Below are positions 4,007-39,636 of a DNA stretch of 52,847 bases, one piece after another; positions within the stretch are counted from its first letter, which is position 1, and every line of letters starts with the position of its first letter. Under the pieces are notes generated by a model. It made no database searches. It worked only from the letters and a program-made list of their open reading frames with translations, and was not told the DNA's origin. The stretch is from Acidimicrobiales bacterium (GTDB taxonomy: Bacteria; Patescibacteriota; Minisyncoccia; Phycocordibacterales; UBA918), in contig JBLIMJ010000005.1 of assembly GCA_047638595.1 (NCBI GenBank), forward strand, positions 1 to 52,847. Direction: 5' to 3'. Both the position numbers and the translations under genes were made by a program.

Positions 4007-4286
4007 ATTAATGAAATTATTTTTTATAATTAATAATTATGTCTATTTGTATTCAGTCATCAGCTGAGTGACCCAATAAAAACAAACGTAACTCCACGTT
4101 GTGTGGATTTCTCTATTATAGAGGTATTTTGTACATAAATATTACCCATGTGGGGAAAACCTCCACAACTGACATAAACTGCAGCAAAGTTTTTCTCTTT
4201 TGTGAAGTAGTCATAAGAGTTACGTTTCAGGGCTGATAAATAAAGCACGAGCTTTCTTTCCCATTTATCAAAATAGGTTCTGGATT

Positions 4287-4501
4287 AATACAATCTAAAA
4301 AACTGGATGGATTGCGCGATGGACAAGAAAGAAAACCTGAGCGGGGCTTCATGCCCAGCGTGAGAAAGTCTGGGAGACTTTTGCAAGAGGTTGGCTAGTA
4401 TTTTGAAGAATGAAAAATACTGACGACCTGAACAGCTTCTGTAAGAAGGGTCTATTTTCGCAGTCTAACAAAGCAAGTCGCCAGTTTTTTTAGATTGTAT
4501 T
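4287..4501. repeat. Palindromic element whose arms mirror the pilC 3' end and which encloses a structured module
   Basis: AATACAATCTAAAAAACTGG (4287-4306) vs CCAGTTTTTTTAGATTGTATT (4481-4501), one indel; internal 4360-4448 is homologous to 29931-30020. Confidence 0.75.
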
Positions 4502-20369: not shown

Positions 20370-20755
20370 CTAGTTGAGCTAATTAGAAACTAAAACGATA
20401 GTTCCTCGTGCTCGCTCGATGATGCGGGGACTAAGTGATACTCACCAGTATGGGTCATCCGATACTAAGTATTTAGTCCTGCGACTTAAAATAAGCTTCT
20501 GGGTCTACATTTCCTTCATTCAAGACAGATTCATAAATTTCCTGTTCTGATACCTTCAGATTATTTCTTTCCTATGCTGCTTGAACTCAAGAAAGGTGTG
20601 CGATTAGGGTGATTATTTACGACTGGTAATGTGTGCACACATTACCAAAATGTTTTGACTTGTGTGCAGAAGAGTTGTTCTTTTGAAATAGACTTGACTA
20701 ATCTAGTCCTTTTTCTATACTTAATTTACGACTTAACCAATGGAGGTATAAGGAA

Positions 20756-21133
20756 ATGTTTAGAAAGTTCTTTTCAGTACTAACGGCCAGTTTTGTTTTG
20801 CTGGCAATGGTGCAAACAGCTAACGCTGCCGGATTGTACGAGGGCCAGTCTTTTTCCGGCGGGTGGAACCTAACATATAATCGCCAGGGTGACATCGATA
20901 TTGGTGACAGTAGCGATGGTACCTTTCTCGATTTGAGGAGTACCTCACGTTATTGTGTGCACAAAGGTGCTGGCTATTCGACCATGAATCGGTACATCAG
21001 GAGCAACTATCCAGACAATGTAAGGTGGTCTGTGGATGAAATTTGCAACGATGGCTATGTCCGAATTTGTGTTAGCGCATCTTGGGGCGCTGTTGCCTGT
21101 TCAACCTACTCTAATCATGGTTGGAAGGATTAA
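20756..21133 (+). CDS. Secreted hypothetical protein with 4 Cys
   Basis: Signal peptide ending ANA, upstream GGAGG, downstream hairpin with T-tract at about 21140-21170. Confidence 0.7.
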   Translation: MFRKFFSVLTASFVLLAMVQTANAAGLYEGQSFSGGWNLTYNRQGDIDIGDSSDGTFLDLRSTSRYCVHKGAGYSTMNRYIRSNYPDNVRWSVDEICNDGYVRICVSASWGAVACSTYSNHGWKD

Positions 21134-21388
21134 GGAACACCCTGGGCGATATATTCGTCCAGGGCTTTTTTGTCGTGTGTAACTTTCCACTAACTAAAAG
21201 CACACCTTCAAGTTACTAATTATTTTGTATCGCTTTGCTCATAAAATACTAAGTACTTGCAGACTCACCTCGCGACTCGTCACCCCAGAGAAGGGTGAAT
21301 CGTACCGCTCATAAAATAAGTAAGTACTCTCGACCCCGACTCGACTCTCTTCTTCTCTCAGCTCAGAAATTCACATGAGCCTCCGTCT

Positions 21389-21784
21389 TTCAAATCCCGA
21401 CATCTCTCACAAACGCAAAAGACCCTGAAAGCGAGAGCTTTCAGGGTCTGCGTTGTGTGGAGAGTAAGGGATTCGAAGCTTACAGCTTCAGTCTGCCTTT
21501 TGGACATATTACTTCGCTTCGCTCGTAATCTGTCACAAAAGCCTTTCGAATCCCTTACTCTCGCGCAAATACAACAAAACCCAAAGACATGCTTTGGGTT
21601 TTGGTATTTGCGGAGAGTAAGGGATTCGAACATTACATGTTCAGTACACCTTTTGGCTATATTATTTCGCAAGCTCATAATCTAGCTCAAAAGCTCTTCG
21701 AATCGTGCAACGCTTTTCTTAAGAAAAGCTGCACCCTTACTCTCCGCATATACAAAAACGCCCCAAAGGGCGTGATTGTATATG
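21389..21784. repeat. Array of alternating direct and inverted copies of the tRNA-Ser(ACU) 3' end separated by hairpin modules
   Basis: GGAGAGTAAGGGATTCGAA at 21459 and 21612; inverse at 21545 and 21697-21747 (interrupted); degenerate inverse at 21389. Confidence 0.9.
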
Positions 21785-21871
21785 CGGAGAGTAAGGGATT
21801 CGAACCCTTGGAACCGTTTAAAGTTCGGCAGTTTAGTAAACTGCTGCTTTCGACCACTCAGCCAACTCTCC
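21785..21871 (-). tRNA. tRNA-Ser(ACU)
   Basis: GGAGAGT/ACTCTCC acceptor, G73, long variable arm, anticodon arm GCAGT-TTACTAA-ACTGC, GGTTCGAATCC T-arm; CCA not encoded. Confidence 0.88.
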
Positions 21872-22110
21872 AATATTCTATTGTCGGGAAGTTGGCTTCG
21901 GGTCGAACAAGTTCGGTCCACTTCCCTGCGGTCGGATGATATGCCTCCCAGGCATATCATCCACTCAAGGTCCAGCGATTTTCTCAATGGGAGAAAAAAT
22001 CGGGACATAAATTCATAATATAGCCTTTGTCTATTTATTCATTCACCAACTCTCCATTTTTCAACCTCAGCAGTATAGCAATTCTGTATGAAAACTAAAG
22101 CTTTGTGTGA

Positions 22111-22429
22111 CGGCGACGAGAGGAATTTTTCTCTCTCTACGAGGGCAGTATAGGTTGTCGATATTTCTTGCGAAATATCTGGCAACCTTTTCGAATCCTC
22201 TCGTCTCTCTCAAACGTAAACATGGCGAATGCATACGCATCCGCCATGTACGTTTGCGGAGACGAGAGGATTCGAACATTACATGTTCAGTCTGCCTTTT
22301 GGACATATCCTACCTTCGGTCGAATCTGTCACAAAAGCCTTTCGAATCGTGCAACGCTTTTCTTAAGAAAAGCTGCACCTCTCGTCTCCGCAATAGAAAA
22401 AACACCCCAGTGGGTGTATTTTCCTATTG
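22111..22429. repeat. Array of alternating direct and inverted copies of the tRNA-Ser(GCU) 3' end separated by hairpin modules
   Basis: GCGGAGACGAGAGGATTCGAA at 22256, degenerate copy at 22111; inverse at 22190 and 22341-22391 (interrupted). Confidence 0.9.
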
Positions 22430-22515
22430 CGGAGACGAGAGGATTCGAACCTCCGGGGGCTTAACACCCCACTTCCTTAGCAAGGAAGCACGATAGACCA
22501 CTCTGACACGTCTCC
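22430..22515 (-). tRNA. tRNA-Ser(GCU)
   Basis: GGAGACG/CGTCTCC acceptor, G73, anticodon arm CTTCC-TTGCTAA-GGAAG, long variable arm. Confidence 0.93.
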
Positions 22516-22638
22516 AGATATTTCACTACTCACTTCGGCCAGTAGAATACCACATTGTGTAATGGAGTTCTACAGTTGACTTATGGTTCATAATTTGAGA
22601 GATTACAAACAGAGAAATTAGTCATACAGGAGGTCCTT

Positions 22639-23163
22639 ATGGACATGACAGAACTTCAAGAACACTGGGCGGGAATACTTGCAGAAGAATACAGCAAGCG
22701 TACTGAATTACAAAAGTATGACATGGACATTCTCATTGAATTTTCCAAAGCAACTGTCCTTGGGGCATGGCCTGAAATTGTCGATCTTCCAGATTGTAAA
22801 GATAATACTCATTGCGTATCGGTCACACCAAACGCAATGACCAATGTACTGAGTTGCATCATCGGATCTGATCCAAATATAAAACAGCACACGGGCAGGG
22901 ATGCAACTGCGCAAACTGGTACTTTTGTAGCCGGTGTATGTGGCGCAGCGATTGGCCATGTAGTTGGCGGAACCTTAATGGGGATTGACCCATTTGGATT
23001 TTCTACCTTTCTTCCAATCGGAGTCTCAGCAATTATTACGCTGTCGCTTCCTGAGCCACTACGTAGTCGTGCAAAAGTACTTATGACTGGTCACAGGGCT
23101 GACAATGGCAAAGAGCTTTTCAAACCAGCTGAGATTCTACTGGTACGTATACCCACCACATAA
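22639..23163 (+). CDS. Hypothetical membrane protein
   Basis: 174 aa, AGGAGG SD, Gly-rich hydrophobic hairpin. Confidence 0.6.
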   Translation: MDMTELQEHWAGILAEEYSKRTELQKYDMDILIEFSKATVLGAWPEIVDLPDCKDNTHCVSVTPNAMTNVLSCIIGSDPNIKQHTGRDATAQTGTFVAGVCGAAIGHVVGGTLMGIDPFGFSTFLPIGVSAIITLSLPEPLRSRAKVLMTGHRADNGKELFKPAEILLVRIPTT

Positions 23164-23430
23164 AAGAGCAACAAGCTCGGCGACCGTCTGGTCTCCGGGC
23201 GTTTCGTTTGTATACCGTACTACAAGTGACTACGTTACATATTTCCCACGGTCTATAAAATTTGTTCTCACTTGATGTTCTTCGTCATCAGCGTCTATAA
23301 AATGCATGGGTAGTGTCTTCCATTAATTCCCATTGAGTGTGACACCTCAAAACGTGCAGTACTCTCATAATATGCATCCAGTGATAGCGCTATAGCTTTT
23401 TCATGCTTTACAGGTTCGCCTTCCATGTTT

Positions 23431-24579
23431 CTATTTAACCACACTTGCAACTTTCTTTGCTAGATCTTTAGTCATAATGCCTGGGATGATTTCTTTTGAT
23501 GTTGGCTTGGCAACTAAACCTGCAATCTTCTTAGCAGCAGCCAACTTCATTGCTTCAGTTATATGAGGAACACTCTTATCCAATGCCCCACGGAAGATTC
23601 CTGGGAAGACCAACGAGTTATTCACCTGATTAGGGTAGTCACTTCGTCCTGTGGCCACTACGGCAGCTCCTGCTTGCAATGCATCTTCTGGTTTAATCTC
23701 TGGAATTGGATTTGCCAGTGCAAAAACAATAGCCTGTGGGGCCATTTTTTCTATGTGGTGCTTTGAGATTGTCCCAGGGCCGGACACACCAATAAGAACA
23801 TCGGCGCCATCAACAGCATCAAGAACCTCTCCTTTTACTTTTTGTAAGTTTGTTATCTTAGCCAATTCAGTTTTGTATGACGTCAAACCTGAGCGTCCTT
23901 CATAAATAATGCCGTTACTATCAGTCACAATGATTTCTTGTATACCTGCCTCAACGAGCAAGAGAGTGACCGCCCTCCCTGCTGCTCCAGCCCCTACAAT
24001 CACCACACGCAACTTAGTAAATTTCTTCCCCACTACTTTTGCTGCGTTAATCAGACCCGCAAGTACCACAATAGCTGTACCGTGTTGATCATCATGAAAA
24101 ACAGGAATATCGAGCTCTGCTTTGAGTCGTTCTTCAATCTCAAAACAACGAGGTGCCGCAATGTCTTCAAGGTTGATTCCTCCAAAGCCTGGGGCAATAG
24201 CTTTTACTATCGAGATGATTTCTTCAGTGTCCTGTGTATCAAGCACAATCGGAAACGCGTCTACCCCTGCCATCTCTTTGAAAATTGCACACTTCCCTTC
24301 CATCACTGGTAATGCCCCAAGTGGACCGATGTTGCCAAGACCAAGTACAGCTGAACCATCTGAAACTACGGCAACGGTATTGCCTTTGATGGTGTACTTC
24401 CGTGCATCTGCTGGGTGTTTTGCTATATGTGAGGATACGGCTGCAACCCCTGGGGTATACATGGTACTCCAGTCGTCTTTAGTCTTTAGCTTTCCTTTAC
24501 TGATTACTTCTAATTTCCCCTGCATTTTTTTATGACTTGTCAGTGCCATTTGATCGTAATCTTTTTTCTTTGTTGTCAT
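23431..24579 (-). CDS. NAD(P)-dependent malic enzyme
   Basis: YTPGVA, DGSAVLGLGNIG, PVMEGK, INLEDI, FHDDQHGT, GAGAAG, NQVNN. Confidence 0.93.
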   Translation of the reverse strand: MTTKKKDYDQMALTSHKKMQGKLEVISKGKLKTKDDWSTMYTPGVAAVSSHIAKHPADARKYTIKGNTVAVVSDGSAVLGLGNIGPLGALPVMEGKCAIFKEMAGVDAFPIVLDTQDTEEIISIVKAIAPGFGGINLEDIAAPRCFEIEERLKAELDIPVFHDDQHGTAIVVLAGLINAAKVVGKKFTKLRVVIVGAGAAGRAVTLLLVEAGIQEIIVTDSNGIIYEGRSGLTSYKTELAKITNLQKVKGEVLDAVDGADVLIGVSGPGTISKHHIEKMAPQAIVFALANPIPEIKPEDALQAGAAVVATGRSDYPNQVNNSLVFPGIFRGALDKSVPHITEAMKLAAAKKIAGLVAKPTSKEIIPGIMTKDLAKKVASVVK

Positions 24580-24805
24580 AAACTGTAGTACGTAGCGATT
24601 TAGTATTTAATACATGTAGTATACGTTACTGCACCAAGCTCAGCAAAAATCACAATAATCCACAGAGTGTGTTAATACCCACTATCCTTTTTAATTAACT
24701 TTGTTTGGAATAATTAGTTTTTACGTATCTTTGTCAGAAAAAGGAGGGGTAAAAGAAAACAGGGAGCGAAAAAAATCGCCCCCTGGTCGGGATAGTATCC
24801 CTTGT

Positions 24806-25471
24806 TTAGTTCAGTACACCTGCTTCTGCAAACGCGTCTTCCAACGCTGTTGTTGTCATTGGTTTTTCCGGTGCTGCCGAAGCAACCAACCTCAAACGTG
24901 GTTGGGCAGGAGGCTTATCCAAAGACTTCTGCGTCACTGTGCGTGCTGTGAGTTTTTTGACGGCCGGTTTTTTGACGGCGGGTTTTTTGGCAGCAGGTTT
25001 CACTGGCGGAACATTTTTCACATCTTCGTGAAGTGAAAGATTGATTCCGCATATACCTTCCTTTCCCTCTGCGACAGTGAAATCGAGGGTTGCACCCTCG
25101 ATAATCTGGCTACGCAGCGACTGAACCACTCCGCCGACATGGATGAACATATCCAGATGATCTTTCACTGTCAGGTGGCAAAAACCTTTCTCAGGCGCAT
25201 ATTTTACAGTACCAGAGGCTTTAGTCCCCACAGCGAGGGCAGTTAAAGGTTTTTTCGTAGGTTTGCCCTTTTTTTTCTGTTCCTCTACTACAACGGACAC
25301 CAGTCGTTGATGCAACGCCTCTGCAGCTTTATAGGCTGGTGTTTCCACCATTGATGGGAAAGATTCAACTGACTCTTCCAATGTCTTTCGTATAACATTT
25401 ATCAGTCCAACATTTTCCACCGTTGCTTGCAGTAGTGTCTGCTTTTTTGTTTCGTTTGTACCATTTGTCAT
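24806..25471 (-). CDS. Divergent cold-shock (OB-fold) domain protein with Lys/Ala/Pro-rich tail
   Basis: GTVK...EKGFCHL...DMFIH...EGATLDFTV..GKEG; KPAAKKPAVKKPAVKK; AAGGAGG SD. Confidence 0.65.
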   Translation of the reverse strand: MTNGTNETKKQTLLQATVENVGLINVIRKTLEESVESFPSMVETPAYKAAEALHQRLVSVVVEEQKKKGKPTKKPLTALAVGTKASGTVKYAPEKGFCHLTVKDHLDMFIHVGGVVQSLRSQIIEGATLDFTVAEGKEGICGINLSLHEDVKNVPPVKPAAKKPAVKKPAVKKLTARTVTQKSLDKPPAQPRLRLVASAAPEKPMTTTALEDAFAEAGVLN

Positions 25472-25582
25472 TTTAGGTCCCTCCTTGGATTATGACATGA
25501 AAATTCTGTTTGCAACAGTACAATATTTAATAGTAATTGTCAATAAACATACCCGAGCCTCTATTTCTGTTATTATGTCTCT

Positions 25583-27889
25583 ATGAAACTCACCGACAAA
25601 CTTGCTGATCATTTCCGTGTTGATGTACCCCATCAGAAGGCATTGAAACGACTGCGTATTGAGACGGTTGAGGAACTCTTGTACCACCTCCCTGCACGGT
25701 ATGAGGATATTTCTGAAGTACAGTCCGTTGGAGGTTTAGTAAAAGACCAAGAAGCGATTGTGTATGGACAACTCTCGGGTCTCAAGAGCCGAAAGGCATG
25801 GAAAAGTAAGCGTCCTATTGCTGAAGGGTTTATTGAAGATGGTTCAGCAAAGATAAAAGTGATGTGGTTTAACCAGCCTTATCTGGCGAAAATGTATGCT
25901 GACGGTATGTATGTAAAAATGGTTGGCAAAGTAACTGGCTCTGAAGGAAAACTATACATCGCAAACCCTGAAGTAGAAAAGCTTGATTCATTACCCATCG
26001 ACCGCCATGATTCCATTTTTAAAGGAACTGATGCTGAGATTAATGACACCCTGTACCCTGTCTATCGTGAGAGTAAAGGAGTAACGAGCAAATGGTTTTA
26101 TCACACAGCACTGAAGTGCTTTGAAAAAAAGGTACTTGAAACACTTACAGACCCCATCCCAAAAGATATTCTTGACCGATACCACTTACCTGAACTTGCT
26201 ACTGCACTGGTATGGGTCCATTCACCGAAAAAAGCTGAGCATGCACAGAGCGCGCGAAAACGCTTTGCATTTGAAGAGGTTTTTTACATCCAAGTTCAAA
26301 AAGCACTTGAGCGTGCGCAGGTGAGTGCCGCTACAACGTATCAGTTCAACACCACTCCTACCCACGTGAAAGAGTTTACCGAACGATTCCCTTTTGAGCT
26401 CACTGCCTCACAAAATAAATCAATCAACGAAATCATTACTGACTTCAATGGCAATCATGCCATGTCTCGTTTACTTGAGGGTGATGTAGGAAGCGGGAAG
26501 ACTGCGGTTGCGGCAACTACTGCGTATGCAGTAGCAACTTCGCGCCCTCCTGAGGGACTCAAAAGTTCTTACGCTAACCTTGAAACTTTGGGAGACGATT
26601 CGAGGCGTGGAGAACGTGACGAAGGAGGCGTGGGTCACCACGATGACAGAGGCACAGAGGCTCCACAACAAAGAAGGGTCCCCAAAGTTTCAAGGTTAGA
26701 CTTTGGCAATCTGCAGGTTGCGTATATGGCACCAACAGAAATTCTCGCAAAACAACACTTTGAAAGTTTCATCGAATACTTCCACCACCTTCCTATTCAA
26801 ATAGGTCTCATTACCGGTTCTGGTTGTATGAAGTACCCAAGCAAGACCGACCCTACTAAACCAACAAAGATAAGTAAGGCCCAGCTTTTAAAGTGGGTTA
26901 AAAATGGCGAGGTGCCAATTGTGATTGGCACACACTCTCTTATATATAAATCGGTAGAGTTTAAACACCTCGCGTACGTCATCATTGACGAGCAACATCG
27001 TTTTGGTACTCGACAACGGTCGGCTCTAGCAAAAAAGGACGAGCGTATGCCTCACTTACTTTCAATGACCGCAACCCCTATCCCCCGCACCTTAGCATTG
27101 ACCATTTATGGGGACCTCGACATCACCTTGCTCGACGAAATGCCGTCTGGTAGAAAACCAATTATCACTGAACTTGTTGGTCCTGGTCAGTCAAAGAAAA
27201 TGTATGACCACGTACGTAGTGAGTTACGTGACGGGAGACAGGCTTATGTCATCTGTCCGCGCATTGAGGAGCCCGACCCTGACAAAGCAACTGCGCTGCG
27301 GTTAAAGAGTGTAACTGCCGAAGCAGAACGTCTGCAGAAAGACGTGTTTCAGGAATTCTCAATCGGTATTCTACACGGGAAAATGAAACCAGCCGAAAAA
27401 GACGCCATGATGCTGAAGTTTACTAACCATGAGATAGACATACTCGTAGCGACCTCTGTGGTAGAAGTGGGGGTAAATGTCCCAAACGCAACTAACATAA
27501 TCATCGAAGGTGCTGAACGTTTTGGTCTTTCTCAGTTACACCAACTTCGTGGGCGCGTGGTACGCAGCAATCATCAAGCATATTGCTTCGCGGTAACTGA
27601 CAGCAAGTCAGAGAAAACACGTGACCGCTTAAAGGCACTTAAAACTGCTAAAAATGGTTTTGAACTTGCCGAGCATGACCTCAACTTCCGTGGAAGTGGA
27701 GAACTCTACGGAGCGAAGCAGTCAGGCCTTACCGACCTCGGTATGGAAGCCATTAAGAACCTCAAGCTTGTGGAAGCGGCACGTGCCGAAGCACGTGCCT
27801 TAGTTGCAGATAGCTCCGACCTTTCCCGTGACTTCCCCTTGATTCACCACAAAGTCACCCAGACACTGGAAAGTTTGCATATGGAGTAA
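25583..27889 (+). CDS. recG: ATP-dependent DNA helicase RecG
   Basis: RLLEGDVGSGKT, APTEILA, DEQHRFG, MTATPIPRT, QLHQLRGRV, RGSGE. Confidence 0.95.
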   Translation: MKLTDKLADHFRVDVPHQKALKRLRIETVEELLYHLPARYEDISEVQSVGGLVKDQEAIVYGQLSGLKSRKAWKSKRPIAEGFIEDGSAKIKVMWFNQPYLAKMYADGMYVKMVGKVTGSEGKLYIANPEVEKLDSLPIDRHDSIFKGTDAEINDTLYPVYRESKGVTSKWFYHTALKCFEKKVLETLTDPIPKDILDRYHLPELATALVWVHSPKKAEHAQSARKRFAFEEVFYIQVQKALERAQVSAATTYQFNTTPTHVKEFTERFPFELTASQNKSINEIITDFNGNHAMSRLLEGDVGSGKTAVAATTAYAVATSRPPEGLKSSYANLETLGDDSRRGERDEGGVGHHDDRGTEAPQQRRVPKVSRLDFGNLQVAYMAPTEILAKQHFESFIEYFHHLPIQIGLITGSGCMKYPSKTDPTKPTKISKAQLLKWVKNGEVPIVIGTHSLIYKSVEFKHLAYVIIDEQHRFGTRQRSALAKKDERMPHLLSMTATPIPRTLALTIYGDLDITLLDEMPSGRKPIITELVGPGQSKKMYDHVRSELRDGRQAYVICPRIEEPDPDKATALRLKSVTAEAERLQKDVFQEFSIGILHGKMKPAEKDAMMLKFTNHEIDILVATSVVEVGVNVPNATNIIIEGAERFGLSQLHQLRGRVVRSNHQAYCFAVTDSKSEKTRDRLKALKTAKNGFELAEHDLNFRGSGELYGAKQSGLTDLGMEAIKNLKLVEAARAEARALVADSSDLSRDFPLIHHKVTQTLESLHME
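26574..26699. mobile_element. 126-bp in-frame palindromic insertion in recG
   Basis: Perfect 19-bp terminal inverted repeat CTAACCTTGAAACTTTGGG / CCCAAAGTTTCAAGGTTAG; exactly 42 codons; lies between helicase motifs I and Ia. Confidence 0.75.
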
Positions 27890-27960
27890 TCTTTATTGAC
27901 GAATAATATTTTTTCTTTATAGTAGGTTACAGAAGTACACTGATTTACCAGGAGGTATGA

Positions 27961-28380
27961 ATGTTACAAGAAAGAACAAGTATAAAACTACGCTCCCATA
28001 TACAGGGCCTGAAAATAACAACGAACTTTGTTTCTCAGAATTATTATTCTGGTCAACCTCATGAGCCCTATTTCGAGAACTGGCATCTTTGGTTCCGTGT
28101 GATACACGATGGGAGTAATCCGTTTCTTCCTTTTGGTGCAAACAAAGGTTGGAAATTCGCGTTTATGCACGCAAAAGTGGAAGACATTCCTCATTTTCTT
28201 CAAGAGGAGACGCCGAAGGATTATATTTTTATCTTGCACCCGCATTCAACACTGAAAGCTGCTGTTGTCACTGACAAATATACAGAAGCTCCCGGGGTAA
28301 CTGTGTTTTTTCGCACCTCAGGATATGACCAATCATCACCATGGTTCAACGAACTGCTCTTTCCTTACCAATGTGCATAA
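27961..28380 (+). CDS. Hypothetical protein (GSNPF motif, paralog 1)
   Basis: AGGAGGT SD; similar to the downstream ORF. Confidence 0.6.
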   Translation: MLQERTSIKLRSHIQGLKITTNFVSQNYYSGQPHEPYFENWHLWFRVIHDGSNPFLPFGANKGWKFAFMHAKVEDIPHFLQEETPKDYIFILHPHSTLKAAVVTDKYTEAPGVTVFFRTSGYDQSSPWFNELLFPYQCA

Positions 28381-28400
28381 GCACCGAAAGGAGGTTATAC

Positions 28401-28811
28401 ATGTTACCAGTCATTCCGCATCACAATAGTGAGGTCGATGGATTTTCCATTGAAATCACCCCCTATGGTGAAAATCCATCAAAGAAAAAAATAGGTATTA
28501 AGTACTTCAGACCAGGTTTTCTAGAAATTCTCGTTATCAATAACGGAAGTAACCCTTTTTGTCCTGAAACCGGATACTGGGAAGCACGAATTCTGACAAT
28601 TAATACCGGTACGCCATTCAATATTGCGGAATCTACAGACTTCCTCGTCATTGAACTTTCACCTGATGAGATACTTCGGTCTATTCTAGTCAGAGAGATG
28701 TACCTAGAGGAGTATGGGCTAGGCGTTTGGATGTTTGTTGTCTACAAATCAATTATCGAAAAAACTTCGCATACAAACATATACCCTATTTGGAACTATG
28801 ACTCTGCTTAG
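28401..28811 (+). CDS. Hypothetical protein (GSNPF motif, paralog 2)
   Basis: AAGGAGGT SD before ATG 28401; followed by hairpin AACCGGCCA-CAT-TGGCCGGTT and T-tract. Confidence 0.6.
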   Translation: MLPVIPHHNSEVDGFSIEITPYGENPSKKKIGIKYFRPGFLEILVINNGSNPFCPETGYWEARILTINTGTPFNIAESTDFLVIELSPDEILRSILVREMYLEEYGLGVWMFVVYKSIIEKTSHTNIYPIWNYDSA

Positions 28812-28895
28812 AATTCTAGTTCCCAACCGGCCACATTGGCCGGTTTTTCTTTTACATACAAAAAGTGGCGGCCAGTGTTGGCCACCACGTTCATC

Positions 28896-29129
28896 TTACT
28901 GCATCCACACAGGGTATGCTCCCTTATCACGAGCTTCATCGAATGCATAGGTATGCGGCCCACACACAATCGCAAGCAACCCTCCAGCAGAATCAACAAC
29001 TGTATAAAACTTTTGGGTATCACCATGCATATGAATTTTTCTTTCTTTTTCACTTATGGAACGTACGAAAACAGTGTGATCTGGAAAATTAACCGGGGGT
29101 ATTAAAGAAGTACCTTTTGCTTTAGTCAT
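28896..29129 (-). CDS. Small hypothetical protein
   Basis: 77 aa, GAGGAGG SD, downstream GC-rich hairpin at about 28865-28888. Confidence 0.45.
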   Translation of the reverse strand: MTKAKGTSLIPPVNFPDHTVFVRSISEKERKIHMHGDTQKFYTVVDSAGGLLAIVCGPHTYAFDEARDKGAYPVWMQ

Positions 29130-29733
29130 CTTCTATTCCTCCTCTGCTTTAGACTTATCTAAGCATCTAAAGATACTGATGGCAAGGTTGTTGTTTTATT
29201 TTCCCTAATATAAAACCGATAAGAACCGAGCGAGAGGTTCTACAGAATAGCTATGACAGAAAAATAATTGTGTGCACATCAATGTAGAAAAAGTACCTGT
29301 GAACACCCATATTGCAACCACAATAAGCAATAAAAAATAGCCGCTCTGAAGCGGCTACAGTTCCATCACACCAGAGTTTTCCTTTATGGTACCGGCGAAT
29401 CATCAGCGTAGCTTGGGATTACTACCTAAGCAGTCACATCAAATATTTAACCAGTAAACACTCTGTCGAGATAACACCTCACTTTCTCAGCGTTTTTGCT
29501 GCTTTGTTACATTGCTCGCTTTAAATACTTGTTTCATGGGGTGTATCTCCTTGATGAAGGGTTAGTAGGCACATTCGTGTGTACCTAATCAGAATATACT
29601 CTAACAAAACAAATCTGTCTACTTAAAACTGACAATAAACTCTTTAACGGAAAACAACAACATGGTCCTATATGCAATTGAGTATGCAGCAATTTCACGG
29701 TATAGTGTTGGACGTTGGCAAAGAATTCTTTGT

Positions 29734-29806
29734 CCGCCTGTAGCTCAGTTGGTAGAGCGCGAAGCTTATACCTTCGTGGTCCTAGGTTCGAGTCCTAGCG
29801 GGCGGA
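29734..29806 (+). tRNA. tRNA-Ile(UAU)
   Basis: CCGCCTG/CGGGCGG acceptor, A73, D-arm AGCTCAGTTGGTAGAGC, anticodon arm CGAAG-CTTATAC-CTTCG, T-arm CTAGG-TTCGAGT-CCTAG. Confidence 0.9.
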
Positions 29807-29830
29807 CAAAGGATTTTTTCTATTGGGGCA

Positions 29831-30059
29831 AGCTCAATTGGTAAGCATAGCTTTCTTGGATTGCATTCGAGAAAAATGAAAGTAAACTTTCACTTTGTCT
29901 CTCATTTGTCCAAGTAGAGCACGAAGCTTCCGTCTTACAGACGCAGTATACCTTGTCGATATTTTTCGTAACCTCAAAATATCAGGCAAGGTCTTGCGAC
30001 AGTCCCCCAGACTGTCTCACCTTCGTGGTCCTAGGTTCGAGTCCTAGCGGGCGGACAAA
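29831..30059 (+). pseudogene. Interrupted second copy of tRNA-Ile with structured insertions in the D-loop and anticodon loop
   Basis: AGCTCAATTGGTA [~73 bp] GAGCACGAAGCTT [~89 bp] ACCTTCG...GGACAAA; 30019-30059 identical to 29770-29810; 5' acceptor strand lost. Confidence 0.8.
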
Positions 30060-30062
30060 CGC

Positions 30063-30104
30063 AAAGAAAAACCCTTCAAACTAAAGTCTGAAGGGTTTTT
30101 CTTT
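30063..30104 (+). terminator. Intrinsic terminator-like hairpin
   Basis: AAAGAAAAACCCTTCA...TGAAGGGTTTTTCTTT. Confidence 0.7.
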
Positions 30105-30125
30105 AGCAACTGCCCTGCGGCAGTT

Positions 30126-30298
30126 GCGGCGTTTGTCCGCGACGAAGCGATGTTTACGAGCAAGTCAGGGGCAAGAGCGGCGTTTGTCCGCGACGAAGCG
30201 ATGTTTACGAGCAAGTCAGGGGCAATGCGGCGTTTGTCCGCGACGAGATGATGTTGCCTTGGCAACCATCGAGTCAGGGACAAGTGCGAAGCTAGTCC
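30126..30298. repeat. Tandem repeat with 50-51 bp unit (2 near-identical copies, 1 diverged)
   Basis: GCGGCGTTTGTCCGCGACGA starts at 30126, 30177 and 30227. Confidence 0.9.
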
Positions 30299-30412
30299 GA
30301 GACGGAGCGACATAAGTTTACCAACAATAAATATATACTCCTAAACTTTTCCCTATATATCATAAATTAATATATGTGACTTTCTAAAGTACTGATATAC
30401 TTACCTTATTAT

Positions 30413-31921
30413 ATGAAAATTACTAAACGGAGTCACGTACTTAAAGTTGTTGTAGTAATCATTATACTTGCGGGTATTCTTGCTGTAACTTCTCTTAAAA
30501 TCGGTGACGACACTGAGAGCTGGATAACTGCAACGGTTGAACGAGGTGACGTACAAAATGTTGTTTCTGTATCTGGTTTTGTTGAAGCAAAAAATACTGC
30601 AAACTTATCTTTTCCCGTGACCGGCATCGTTACTGATGTTTTTGTGAAAGAAGGTGAAGAAGTAAAAAAAGGTAATCTTTTGGCAACGCTAGGGTCAGCC
30701 AAGCTCGTTGCACAAAGAGCAGATGCGGTAGGGATCCTTCAGAAAGCACGAGCTGCTCGTACGGAGCTGTTAGATGGTCCCACAACAGAAGCGCGCGCGG
30801 TGACTGATACAACCGTAAGTTCCGCCGAAGCTAATCTTACCAGTGTCGGTGCAACTGAAGCAGAGAAAGTGGCTAACGCAAAAGCTACTCTACTATCCAA
30901 CGGACTGGAAGCTCGTGCCTTGGATAATGAAGAAACTGCAACCGCCCCTACTATTACAGGTTCGTACACTTGCACCACAGAAGGTATTTACACTCTGTCA
31001 GTGTATAGTTCTGGGTCACTTTCAGGCTTTTCATACAATCTCTCAGGTCTAGAGTCAGAAACTGCTAACGTAACATTCGATCAGCCTTCTAATCTTGGTA
31101 GCTGTGGGCTTTCAATACAATTCACCGACGGAGATTCCTATGCAAGCTCGCAGTGGGCTGTCCGTGTACCCAACACACTCAGCAGCACCTACGTCACGTA
31201 CAAAAATGCATATGATCTTGCACTCGCACAACAAAAACAAAACGTAAAAACTGCACAAGACGCACTCACTCTTGCCCAAGGTAATAAGGTGCTCGCCAAC
31301 GCCGCACCAAGTACTGCAGCGGTACAACAAGTAGACGCTTCTATATACAGTGCACAGGCACGTATAGAACAAATCAACGCTCAGATTGCAGACCTTTCAA
31401 TCATGGCGCCTTTTGACGGGATGATTACTGACGTTGACGTACGTCCTGGAGAAACTGCAGGAGCAAGTCCTGTCATGACACTACTGGCATCTGACGCATT
31501 TGAGCTTAAAGCTCGTATTCCTGAAATTGATATAACCAAAGTTATACAAGGACAACATACCAAGATTGTGTTTGATGCAAAAAGTAATGAGACGCTCAAA
31601 GGTACCATTACATTTGTTTCACCATTAGCAACGGAAATTGACGGAGTAGCGTATTTTGAAACAACTATTGAAATTGAAGAAACACCGCTATGGATCAGGT
31701 CAGGGCTTAATGCAGATATCGACATAGTCGTATCAGAGCTGCAAGATATACTCCGTATCCCAAAACGATTCTTAATCCAAAATGATGACGGCAGTTATGA
31801 TGTCTTAGTTCCTGATAGCAAAGTAACGGACTCAAAATCAATCAAAGTGGTATCTCTGAGCAATAGTGGGTATGCGGTCATTGACGGCCTTAACGAAGGT
31901 GACACGGTAATCGCTCCATAA
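30413..31921 (+). CDS. Efflux membrane-fusion (periplasmic adaptor) protein
   Basis: GDVQNVVSVSG, V.EGE.VKKG, APFDG, IPEIDI, GLNEGD. Confidence 0.88.
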   Translation: MKITKRSHVLKVVVVIIILAGILAVTSLKIGDDTESWITATVERGDVQNVVSVSGFVEAKNTANLSFPVTGIVTDVFVKEGEEVKKGNLLATLGSAKLVAQRADAVGILQKARAARTELLDGPTTEARAVTDTTVSSAEANLTSVGATEAEKVANAKATLLSNGLEARALDNEETATAPTITGSYTCTTEGIYTLSVYSSGSLSGFSYNLSGLESETANVTFDQPSNLGSCGLSIQFTDGDSYASSQWAVRVPNTLSSTYVTYKNAYDLALAQQKQNVKTAQDALTLAQGNKVLANAAPSTAAVQQVDASIYSAQARIEQINAQIADLSIMAPFDGMITDVDVRPGETAGASPVMTLLASDAFELKARIPEIDITKVIQGQHTKIVFDAKSNETLKGTITFVSPLATEIDGVAYFETTIEIEETPLWIRSGLNADIDIVVSELQDILRIPKRFLIQNDDGSYDVLVPDSKVTDSKSIKVVSLSNSGYAVIDGLNEGDTVIAP

Positions 31922-39240: not shown

Positions 39241-39636
39241 GGGGATGCTAGGCATCGACGGTTGGTCGTGTTGAAACGTGTGCAGTGTCGAAATTGGAAT
39301 CAATTCGTTAAAAGGTTCCATCTGTATTTGCAAACAAAGCAATACCAAGTCCTTACGCTAACGCGTTCGGATTCGCACCCGCTATTGCGTAGTTTACTAC
39401 CTAGCCGGCACGATGCGAGAGTACTAAACGTCTCATACGGTACTTCTTGTAGAATAAACACGAGACTAGGTGACCTGATACCGTTGTAGTCAGGGAACGA
39501 GATTTGTATCAGCTCGAACAATTATTGTTTTGTCTTTTCTAAAGATAATTGTTTTAAACCAAAGAATCGACTATACACTGTAGATCACCTTCACACTCTA
39601 ATTCGGACTCGGGTTCAATTCTCGACATCTCCACCA
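39241..39636 (+). ncRNA. ssrA: tmRNA; predicted tag ANKAIPSPYANAFGFAPAIA* (39330-39392)
   Basis: 5' GGGGATG...TCGAC, 3' GACTCGGGTTCAATTCTCGACATCTCCACCA, Ala-ending tag ORF, next to smpB. Confidence 0.93.

What the first reader, a model, noticed from the sequence alone, without database searches (positions are those of the whole stretch)
29931..30020. About 90-nt three-hairpin module conserved by covariation at two loci 25 kb apart
Copy B (29931-30020, +): CGTCT-TAC-AGACG CAGTAT ACCTTGTC GATATTTT..AAAATATC AGGCAAGGT CTTGC GACAGTC-CCCCA-GACTGT CTCAC. Copy A (reverse complement of 4360-4448): CTTCT-TAC-AGAAG CTGTTC AGGTCGTC AGTATTTT..AAAATACT AGCCAACCT CTTGC AAAAGTC-TCCCA-GACTTT CTCAC. About six base pairs change on both sides of the stems, while the TAC loop, CTTGC and CTCAC are invariant. 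This is the signature of selection on structure. Two-hairpin relatives occur at 21475-21541, 21628-21693, 22133-22188 and 22274-22337, all with a TAC triloop followed by (C)AGT. On the opposite strand the loop reads GTA, and one long-hairpin loop reads GCGAAGC. GNA triloops are known to be unusually stable in DNA, so the functional form may be ssDNA (inference).
Basis: seen in the sequence. Interest (0 to 1): 0.85.

Follow-up and report, generated by a model that had tools for sequence, protein, structure and literature searches.

The report
Hairpin repeat family beside tRNA genes
The 90-base three-hairpin module is one copy of a large family of structured DNA repeats found across tiny-genome Patescibacteria, which gather next to tRNA and rRNA genes and often sit inside duplicated pieces of those genes.

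Summary
Both copies are at the stated coordinates, and they differ by about six compensatory pairs. On 87 copies, 95.6% of cells pair and 27 of 29 pairs change on both sides.

It is not a two-locus curiosity. A covariance model finds 79 copies in this 0.93-Mb genome. It finds 0-85 copies in 31 congeneric genomes. An exact pattern hits more than 119 stretches, with no title naming a lineage outside Patescibacteria among the 80 listed. No Rfam family matches.

Copy B lies in the anticodon loop of a 5'-truncated duplicate of tRNA-Ile(UAU), just downstream of the intact gene. In this genome 24 of 34 tRNA genes are followed by a forward duplicate of their 3' part, in most cases with a module beside or inside it. 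Also, 39 of 77 copies lie within 600 nt of a stable-RNA gene, and 31 of those 39 share one orientation.

Pairing is almost purely Watson-Crick. Copies are nested, intergenic and variably present at orthologous sites.

Best reading: a non-autonomous, REP/MITE-like hairpin DNA element that lands in hairpin loops. The mobilising enzyme is unknown. Two RAYT-like HUH genes exist, but the link failed an independent test.

The parts
29931..30020 (+). Copy B: three-hairpin module (hp1 CGTCT-TAC-AGACG; long hp2; hp3 GACAGTC-CCCCA-GACTGTC; ends CTCAC)
   Evidence: best CM match in the genome (105.6 bits)
29734..29807 (+). Intact tRNA-Ile(UAU) gene whose 3' part is duplicated around copy B
   Evidence: Rfam 69.1 bits; ARAGORN anticodon tat
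29849..29921 (+). Second conserved hairpin module ('S type') in the spacer between the tRNA and its truncated copy
   Evidence: 48 invariant columns of 75 against two copies in a named CPR locus (L035), with a compensatory change in the outer stem; single copy in the own genome by BLAST
29914..29929 (+). Duplicate of tRNA-Ile positions 19-34 (15 of 16 identical), abutting the 5' side of copy B
30019..30056 (+). Exact duplicate of tRNA-Ile positions 37-74 abutting the 3' end of copy B. Copy B therefore sits in the anticodon loop of a 5'-truncated tRNA copy.
   Evidence: 39 nt exact
30064..30106 (+). Terminator-like hairpin with T run after the truncated tRNA copy
   Evidence: read; not tested further
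4360..4448 (-). Copy A: three-hairpin module, 42 nt downstream of a pilC/gspF-like ORF, with no tRNA nearby
   Evidence: (92.8 bits)
21610..21783 (-). Unit 1 after tRNA-Ser(ACU).
21457..21609 (-).
22256..22428 (-).
22133..22215 (+).
   Evidence: 46.5 bits

Best explanation
The module is one copy of a Patescibacteria-wide family of modular, hairpin-forming, non-coding DNA repeats. It resembles REP/BIME, BOX and MITE elements in kind. It behaves as a non-autonomous mobile or copy-prone element.

Shown:
- The family has many copies, and all of those examined are intergenic.
- Copies are nested in one another.
- Copies are variably present at orthologous sites.
- The family is enriched next to tRNA and rRNA genes, with one strand preferred.
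- Copies sit in the T-loop, anticodon-loop or D-arm position of partial duplicates of the neighbouring tRNA gene. Some sit between duplicated ends of protein genes. The functional gene stays intact.

Inferred:
- The element is handled as a folded single DNA strand.
- It enters hairpin loops that are exposed on the non-template (sense) strand of heavily transcribed stable-RNA genes.
- The direct and inverted copies of the target around it arise during insertion or repair by fold-back or template switching. Alternatively, only insertions into spare gene-end duplicates survive.

The enzyme is not identified.
For: Copy number and spread:
- 79 CM matches in the own genome.
- 24 of 24 congeners with 2-85 matches. 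Seven further congeners have 0, 1, 1, 4, 5, 20 and 38.
- More than 119 exact-pattern stretches. Among the 80 listed titles, none names a lineage outside Patescibacteria/CPR; about a dozen name no lineage.

Structure:
- Covariation as.
- Pairing is 2221 Watson-Crick against 57 wobble (both strands) and 64 other mismatches. Both strands fold as ssDNA.

Mobility:
- Three-hairpin copies sit inside two-hairpin copies (C13:10619, C4:8007, C41:3741, C9:15514).
- Of 11 orthologous tRNA-Ile(UAU) loci, 4 are empty and 7 carry partial tRNA duplicates. Six of the 7 carry an inserted module, of differing types.
- All 77 copies examined are intergenic.

Target context:
- 24 of 34 tRNA genes have a forward duplicate of their 3' part downstream, and 3 more have only an inverted copy. 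There are 24 units with an exact 12-mer.
- 5'-end duplicates occur upstream of intron-bearing tRNAs and at the RNase HII-like and GH1-like gene starts.
- A direct repeat spans the module in 14 of 71 CPR-wide copies, against 0 of 69 control window pairs. An inverted repeat does so in 7 of 71 against 0 of 69.
- 39 of 77 copies lie within 600 nt of a stable-RNA gene, against 11.8% of non-coding space. In 31 of those 39 the GTA strand is the sense strand. Downstream of tRNAs the figure is 24 of 27.
Against: - No transposase is tied to the family. The two RAYT-like genes are flanked by unrelated palindromes, and the CM finds 0 modules in 13 RAYT-like loci.
- G048 (38 copies, 98% complete) and G051 (20 copies, 85% complete) gave no RAYT-like match.
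- No TnpB or RT was found. The Y2 search was uninformative.
- The sequence is more conserved between congeners than the flanking protein genes. Copies from different genomes intermix on a tree: G001 needs 15 label changes against 17.7 shuffled, and G018 needs 13 against 13.9. This also fits a conserved function.
- The orientation bias and the 38-versus-19 wobble asymmetry could reflect an RNA role in stable-RNA transcripts.
- No new insertion or excision was observed. No clean target-site rule could be derived, and 57 of 71 copies show no flanking direct repeat.
- No exact pattern match was found in viral contigs.
Confidence: 0.5

Rival explanations
1. The module is a functional structured RNA (or RNA-level cis element) of stable-RNA operon transcripts. 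It could be a processing, protection or anti-nuclease element made together with tRNA and rRNA precursors. The tRNA-end copies would give it tRNA-like ends (acceptor/T-arm minihelix) for RNase P, CCA addition or stability.
For: - Enrichment beside tRNA, rRNA and 5S genes, and a sense-strand orientation bias of 31 of 39 (clusters).
- Phylum-wide conservation of unpaired motifs.
- More wobble pairs on the sense (GTA) strand, 38 against 19.
- Inverted plus direct copies of the tRNA 3' end would close a long acceptor-like stem around the module.
Against: - Copy number ranges from 0 to 85 among congeners.
- Units lie behind terminator-like hairpins with T runs (by eye).
- Both orientations occur between protein genes, by my hand tally.
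- Copies are nested.
- Wobble pairs are only about 1.6% of cells on the better strand, fewer than other mismatches.
- No Rfam family matches.
Confidence: 0.2
2. The tRNA-end duplicates are attL/attR remnants of integrase-mediated integrations into tRNA genes. The modules would be the surviving ends of decayed or miniature integrative elements.
For: Duplicates start at the anticodon loop (copy B, L131, L137) or at the T-loop and run to just past the 3' end. These are the classical crossover sublocations for tRNA-targeting integrases (recalled from Williams 2002, not read here).
Against: - Only one tyrosine-recombinase gene is in the genome.
- 24 of 34 tRNAs are affected.
- The inserted segments are only about 100-200 nt.
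- Inverted copies of the target and 5'-end duplicates are not produced by conservative site-specific recombination.
- The module often lies inside the duplicated copy, not at its edge.
Confidence: 0.08
3. Module plus the adjacent copy of a nearby gene segment is a guide RNA: a scaffold plus a guide of about 16-39 nt, as in TnpB omega-RNA or CAST homing guides that match tRNA genes.
For: In at least 6 of 71 CPR-wide copies, and in copy B, the repeat begins at the first base after the module's CTCAC end and matches a segment 10-120 nt upstream of the module.
Against: - No TnpB-type domain is in the genome.
- 57 of 71 copies have no such repeat.
- The repeats vary from 12 to 60 nt and may be inverted.
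Confidence: 0.04
4. The module is an intron-like insertion removed from the tRNA transcript.
For: Copy B lies in an anticodon loop. In the GTA orientation the modules begin GTGAG.
Against: - The interrupted tRNA-Ile copy lacks positions 1-18, and an intact gene lies 124 nt upstream.
- No group I or group II signature is seen by Rfam.
- No RT was found.
- Most copies are not in genes.
Confidence: 0.03

Closest known systems
REP/BIME (REPIN) elements with RAYT Y1 transposases
   Same: - Short extragenic palindromic repeats in high copy, with Watson-Crick covariation.
- Modular combinations of hairpins.
- Variable copy number between relatives.
- The genome encodes two Y1/RAYT-like proteins, each flanked by its own palindrome pair. 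One such palindrome has 5 copies.
   Different: - The module is not the palindrome that flanks the RAYT-like genes.
- There is no GTAG/CGTC tag. The invariant motif is CTTACAG in a hairpin loop.
- It has three hairpins over about 90 nt.
- High copy numbers occur without a RAYT-like gene.
- Embedding in tRNA-end duplicates is, to my recollection, not a REP trait.
IS200/IS605-derived non-autonomous elements (PATEs) and IS608-type ssDNA transposition
   Same: - Hairpins near both ends.
- A TTAC motif and an end that follows a hairpin by a few bases (TCAC here; IS608 uses TTAC and TCAA, recalled).
- Strand bias, and nested insertions without an evident duplication.
   Different: - No autonomous partner with the same ends was found.
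- TTAC lies inside the hp1 loop, not in the flank.
- Many copies are flanked by long direct or inverted target copies, which peel-and-paste does not create.
BOX elements of pneumococci, and double-hairpin elements of Allomyces mitochondria (recalled)
   Same: Modular structured repeats of unknown mobilisation, inserted in intergenic and RNA-gene-flanking DNA.
   Different: Different sequences and hosts. No reported link to duplicated tRNA ends. This comparison is from memory only.
tRNA-gene integration sites of integrases (attL/attR duplications)
   Same: Duplication of the tRNA from the anticodon loop or T-loop to the 3' end keeps the gene intact.
   Different: No integrase or cargo is present. 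Inverted copies, 5'-end duplicates and modules inside the duplicate also differ.

Membership tests
REP/RAYT (REPIN) system | Short extragenic palindromic repeats in many copies | tested here: met
   79 CM matches. All 77 examined are intergenic.
REP/RAYT (REPIN) system | Conserved GTAG or CGTC tag at the foot of the hairpin | tested here: not met
   The hp1 5' strand varies (CGTCT, CTTCT, CATCT, CGGCT and others). The invariant motif is CTTACAG. The tag definition comes from the listing of PMC3733652 and from recall.
REP/RAYT (REPIN) system | The cognate RAYT gene is flanked by copies of the same repeat | tested here: not met
   The CM finds 0 modules in 13 RAYT-like loci. The flanks are other perfect palindromes.
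REP/RAYT (REPIN) system | Repeat population depends on presence of the RAYT | tested here: inconclusive
   First set: 17 genomes with a RAYT-like gene have median 18 copies; 8 without have median 8 (p = 0.008, kin not independent). New set: G048 has 38 copies and G051 has 20, both without a match.
IS200/IS605-derived non-autonomous element | An autonomous element with a Y1 TnpA (with or without TnpB) that carries the same ends | tested here: not met
IS200/IS605-derived non-autonomous element | Insertion 3' of a fixed tetra- or pentanucleotide without target duplication | tested here: inconclusive
   Nested copies show no evident duplication. However, 14 of 71 copies have direct target repeats and 7 of 71 have inverted ones. 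No fixed flank motif was derived.
Classical MITE | Own terminal inverted repeats and a fixed-length target-site duplication | tested here: not met
   The flanking inverted repeats are copies of the local target (tRNA-specific). Repeat length varies from 12 to 60 nt.
Any Rfam 15 RNA family | Match at the gathering score | tested here: not met
   Window scan: only tmRNA and 3 tRNAs. Permissive scan of 29700-30320: nothing on the module better than a CRISPR-DR54 chance hit of 15 bits against a cut-off of 39.
tRNA intron (group I or bulge-helix-bulge) | Interrupts an otherwise complete tRNA gene | tested here: not met
   The interrupted copy holds only positions 19-34 and 37-74. ARAGORN and Rfam find only the upstream intact gene.
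Integrase att-site duplication | Direct repeat of the tRNA 3' part bounding an element that encodes an integrase | tested here: not met
   The repeat is present. No integrase lies between the repeats, and the genome has one tyrosine-recombinase gene, on another contig.

The most novel reading that the evidence does not exclude
The modules may be a previously undescribed kind of DNA parasite (or domesticated element) of ultra-small bacteria. It would enter hairpin loops of essential structured-RNA genes and gene ends, and would be made harmless by a built-in duplication of the interrupted gene end. The direct and inverted target copies would be made by fold-back priming from the element itself, without a dedicated transposase. 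Alternatively, the module-bearing tRNA minihelices may be expressed as a new class of tRNA-like RNAs.
Probability: 0.15. Interest if true: 0.85.

Novelty: new variant of a known kind. Interest (0 to 1): 0.6.

Why it matters
Genomes under 1 Mb are thought to shed repeats. This one carries about 79 copies of a 90-nt structured element, and duplicated gene ends follow 24 of its 34 tRNA genes.

The family is conserved across many Patescibacteria lineages, has no Rfam family, and was not found in five literature searches. It gives a concrete handle on three things:
- how mobile or copy-prone DNA persists in streamlined symbionts;
- how essential RNA genes tolerate insertions;
- which enzyme handles hairpin DNA in these organisms.

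It also matters for annotation, because truncated tRNA copies and module-rich spacers can break assemblies and mislead tRNA counts.

Tried and rejected
Known RNA family: Rfam at the gathering score on the window, and permissively on 29700-30320, gave nothing for the module.

Expression: no RNA holder was listed. Contigs of three DNA runs laid on 20500-31500 break at the repeats and showed no usable presence/absence joint. Neither result is used as evidence.

RAYT link:
- The two Y1/RAYT-like genes match NCBIfam NF047646 below its cut-off (38 and 43 bits against 80).
- They have no PDB relative by phmmer.
- They are not flanked by the module.
- The copy-number association failed on G048 and G051.
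- One lead remains. The palindrome that flanks one RAYT-like gene reads ATTACAGGGG... and so shares TTACAG with the module's invariant motif. One relative's palindrome holds TCTTACG. This could be chance.

Other enzymes: TnpB and RT were not found. The Y2 search rang nowhere, controls included, so it says nothing.

Replication-strand bias: local GC skew is confounded by gene strand. The GTA strand is on the G-rich strand in 47 copies and on the C-rich strand in 22, while genes are 369 against 97. I dropped this line. In G007, 16 of 22 copies on contig 1 lie on one strand, but the origin is unknown.

Fixed target-site duplication: rejected. The repeats vary in length, and in copy B and L131, L137 and L142 the module lies inside the duplicated tRNA piece.

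Phage carriage: 0 exact pattern matches in viral contigs. An exact pattern is a narrow test.

Genome-specific bursts: the tree shows only one mostly-G000 clade (11 of 12 rows). Otherwise genomes are intermixed. I chose only the best-scoring copies: 34 of 77 from G000, 20 from G001, 15 from G018 and 5 from G016.

Literature: searches returned nothing describing this family. I saw only listings and abstract starts and read no paper. Supplements were not opened.

Full report
**Observation**

I aligned them with nine copies from related genomes. They share three hairpins with 29 predicted pairs, and 15 of these keep pairing through changes on both sides. Between A and B alone, six pairs differ on both sides.

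A covariance model built from this alignment aligned 87 copies from 80 named public loci plus the window.
- 95.6% of 2342 cells pair.
- 27 of 29 pairs show double changes.
- None of 500 shuffles reaches the observed values.
- Sliding the partners by 1-3 columns drops pairing to 52% or less.

That alignment is fitted to the model, which favours the structure, but the margins are large. Both strands of both window copies fold far better than shuffles as ssDNA. No Rfam family matches.

**Scale**

The module is not a two-locus feature.
- The model finds 79 matches in this 927-kb, 43-contig genome.
- All 24 congeners of a first sample have 2-85 matches, as do 8 of 16 genomes from other families of the order.
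- Seven further congeners have 0, 1, 1, 4, 5, 20 and 38.
- An exact pattern taken from the invariant columns hits more than 119 stretches in the species-representative genome collection. Among the 80 listed titles, none names a lineage outside Patescibacteria/CPR. They include Paceibacterota, Kaiser-, Nomura-, Zambryski-, Taylor- and Lloydbacteria and records labelled Saccharibacteria; about a dozen say only 'uncultured bacterium' or 'bacterium'.
- The same pattern has 0 matches in viral contigs.

**Context of copy B**

ARAGORN and Rfam place an intact tRNA-Ile(UAU) gene at 29734-29807. Downstream come, in order:
- a second conserved hairpin module in the spacer (29849-29921);
- a copy of tRNA positions 19-34 (29914-29929; 15 of 16 identical);
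- copy B;
- an exact copy of tRNA positions 37-74 (30019-30056).

Copy B therefore sits in the anticodon loop of a 5'-truncated duplicate of the neighbouring tRNA.

Each is bracketed by an inverted and an exact direct copy of that tRNA's own 3' end, from the T-loop to just past the discriminator. Each unit is preceded by a terminator-like hairpin.

**This is a genome-wide rule**

- Of 34 tRNA genes, 24 have a forward duplicate of their 3' part within 800 nt downstream. Three more have only an inverted copy, and 7 have none.
- An exact 12-mer of the 3' end recurs in 24 units.
- Some tandem units are identical (Leu-GAG, Gly-UCC, Met).
- The inverted copy derives from the 3' strand, not from the tRNA 5' strand. 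In tRNA-Gln(CUG) it carries the complement of the T-stem 3' strand where that stem has a G-T wobble (read).

Modules also cluster just downstream of the 23S-5S genes and upstream of the 16S gene. Overall, 39 of 77 copies lie within 600 nt of a stable-RNA gene, against 11.8% of the non-coding space. In 31 of those 39 the GTA-loop strand is the sense strand. Downstream of tRNAs the figure is 24 of 27, and copy B is one of the three exceptions. Clustered copies are not independent, so the p-values overstate the effect.

**Elsewhere in the phylum**

The same logic appears at gene 5' ends.
- In two named loci, a fragment of tRNA positions 1-22/24 followed by a module lies upstream of the complete tRNA, which carries a group-I-like intron.
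- In relatives, an RNase HII-like gene and a GH1-like gene each have a displaced old start, the module, a short spacer, and then a repeat of the target joined to the gene body. The GH1 site is occupied in G024 and G009 and in the flanks of two further named loci.

Across 71 CPR-wide copies with clean flanks, 14 have a direct repeat across the module and 7 have an inverted one. Among 69 control window pairs, none has either. In at least six cases the right-hand copy begins at the first base after the module's CTCAC end. The remaining 57 show no direct repeat, so duplication is frequent but not obligatory.

**Evidence for mobility or turnover**

- Three-hairpin copies are nested inside two-hairpin copies.
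- Of 11 orthologous tRNA-Ile(UAU) loci in congeners, 4 have nothing after the tRNA. Seven carry partial duplicates of the tRNA 3' part, and 6 of these hold an inserted module. The modules are of different types and in different positions.
- All 77 copies examined in the own genome are intergenic.

On the other hand, copies from four genomes intermix on a tree, apart from one mostly-G000 clade. Several sites appear orthologous between species. The modules are also better conserved at the DNA level than the neighbouring protein genes. The family is therefore old and constrained, not just a recent burst.

**DNA or RNA**

Of 2342 paired cells, 2221 are Watson-Crick. Nineteen are G-T on the TAC strand, 38 would be G-T on the GTA strand, and 64 are other mismatches. 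Wobble pairs are rarer than other mismatches. This is unlike typical functional RNAs (general knowledge) and fits hairpins selected in DNA. The 2:1 asymmetry points weakly to the GTA (sense) strand as the folded one. On that strand the loops read GTA and often GCGAAGC. These are forms I recall as unusually stable DNA mini-hairpins (Hirao and colleagues, not read here). No RNA data could be had.

**Enzyme**

The genome encodes two Y1 HUH proteins of 217 and 224 aa. They score above the Pfam Y1_Tnp cut-off and below the NCBIfam RAYT cut-off. Each is flanked by its own perfect palindrome, and one palindrome has 5 genomic copies. That is a small REP/RAYT-like system in its own right.

The module is not found next to 13 such genes. 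In a first sample, copy number was higher in genomes with a RAYT-like gene (median 18 against 8). The prediction then failed: G048 (38 copies) and G051 (20 copies) gave no match. TnpB and RT were not found, and there is one tyrosine recombinase. The mobilising activity is unknown.

**Interpretation**

I read the module as a member of a new, phylum-wide family of modular hairpin DNA repeats. It is closest in kind to REP/BIME, BOX and IS200/IS605-derived elements, but it fails their specific membership tests. It preferentially occupies hairpin loops (T-loop, anticodon loop, D-arm, terminators, other modules) around heavily transcribed stable-RNA genes.

I cannot say whether the flanking direct and inverted target copies are made during insertion, by fold-back or template switching at palindromic microhomologies such as TTCGAA. 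The alternative is that modules simply survive only in spare duplicates. The main rival is a functional RNA of stable-RNA transcripts, which the orientation bias and conservation keep alive.

I judge the finding real, not previously described in the sources I could search (listings only), and of moderate to high interest.

Noticed in passing
window 21784-21871 (-): tRNA-Ser with anticodon ACU (loop UUACUAA). A34 is unusual outside tRNA-Arg(ACG). It sits next to a normal tRNA-Ser(GCU).
   Followed up: no
window 30125-30246 (+): A 51-nt tandem repeat (2.4 copies, 95% matches) just downstream of the truncated tRNA-Ile copy. Each unit starts with an inverted copy of the tRNA 3' end plus flank (GCGTTTGTCCGC). 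Similar sequences follow tRNA-Lys(UUU) on C24.
   Followed up: partly
G000:C1:59775-60425 and G000:C8:216-869 (L144, L145): Two RAYT-like Y1 HUH genes, each bracketed by its own perfect palindrome. The C1 palindrome (ATTACAGGGGACAC...GTGTCCCCTGTAAT) has 5 copies in the genome. This is a small REP/RAYT-like system separate from the module family.
   Followed up: partly
L035:2860-3175 (-) and L027:7293-7500 (+): In two named CPR records, a tRNA gene carries a roughly 240-nt insertion with group-I-intron-like core motifs in the anticodon loop. ARAGORN therefore misses it. Upstream lies a 5' fragment of the same tRNA followed by a module. The own genome lacks a detectable tRNA-Asn, which might have the same cause.
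   Followed up: no
G000:C14:8722-10246 and G000:C16:545-884, 4213-4481: Module clusters directly downstream of the 23S-5S genes and upstream of the 16S gene. The 16S and 23S genes are on different contigs.
   Followed up: partly
L159, L160, L167, L168, L172, L176, L177, L182, L187 (G001, G018): Many modules sit inside another repeat (GGATTGC...TCGCAAAGACG). A short inverted copy of the right flank (TTTGCGA) lies on their left side. This suggests that an inverted target copy comes with the insertion.
   Followed up: no
G007:C1: 16 of 22 module copies on this contig of over 640 kb lie on the minus strand. This may be a replication- or transcription-linked strand bias, but the origin position is unknown.
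   Followed up: no
window 39241-39636 (+): tmRNA gene with tag peptide ANKAIPSPYANAFGFAPAIA. It appears ordinary.
   Followed up: no
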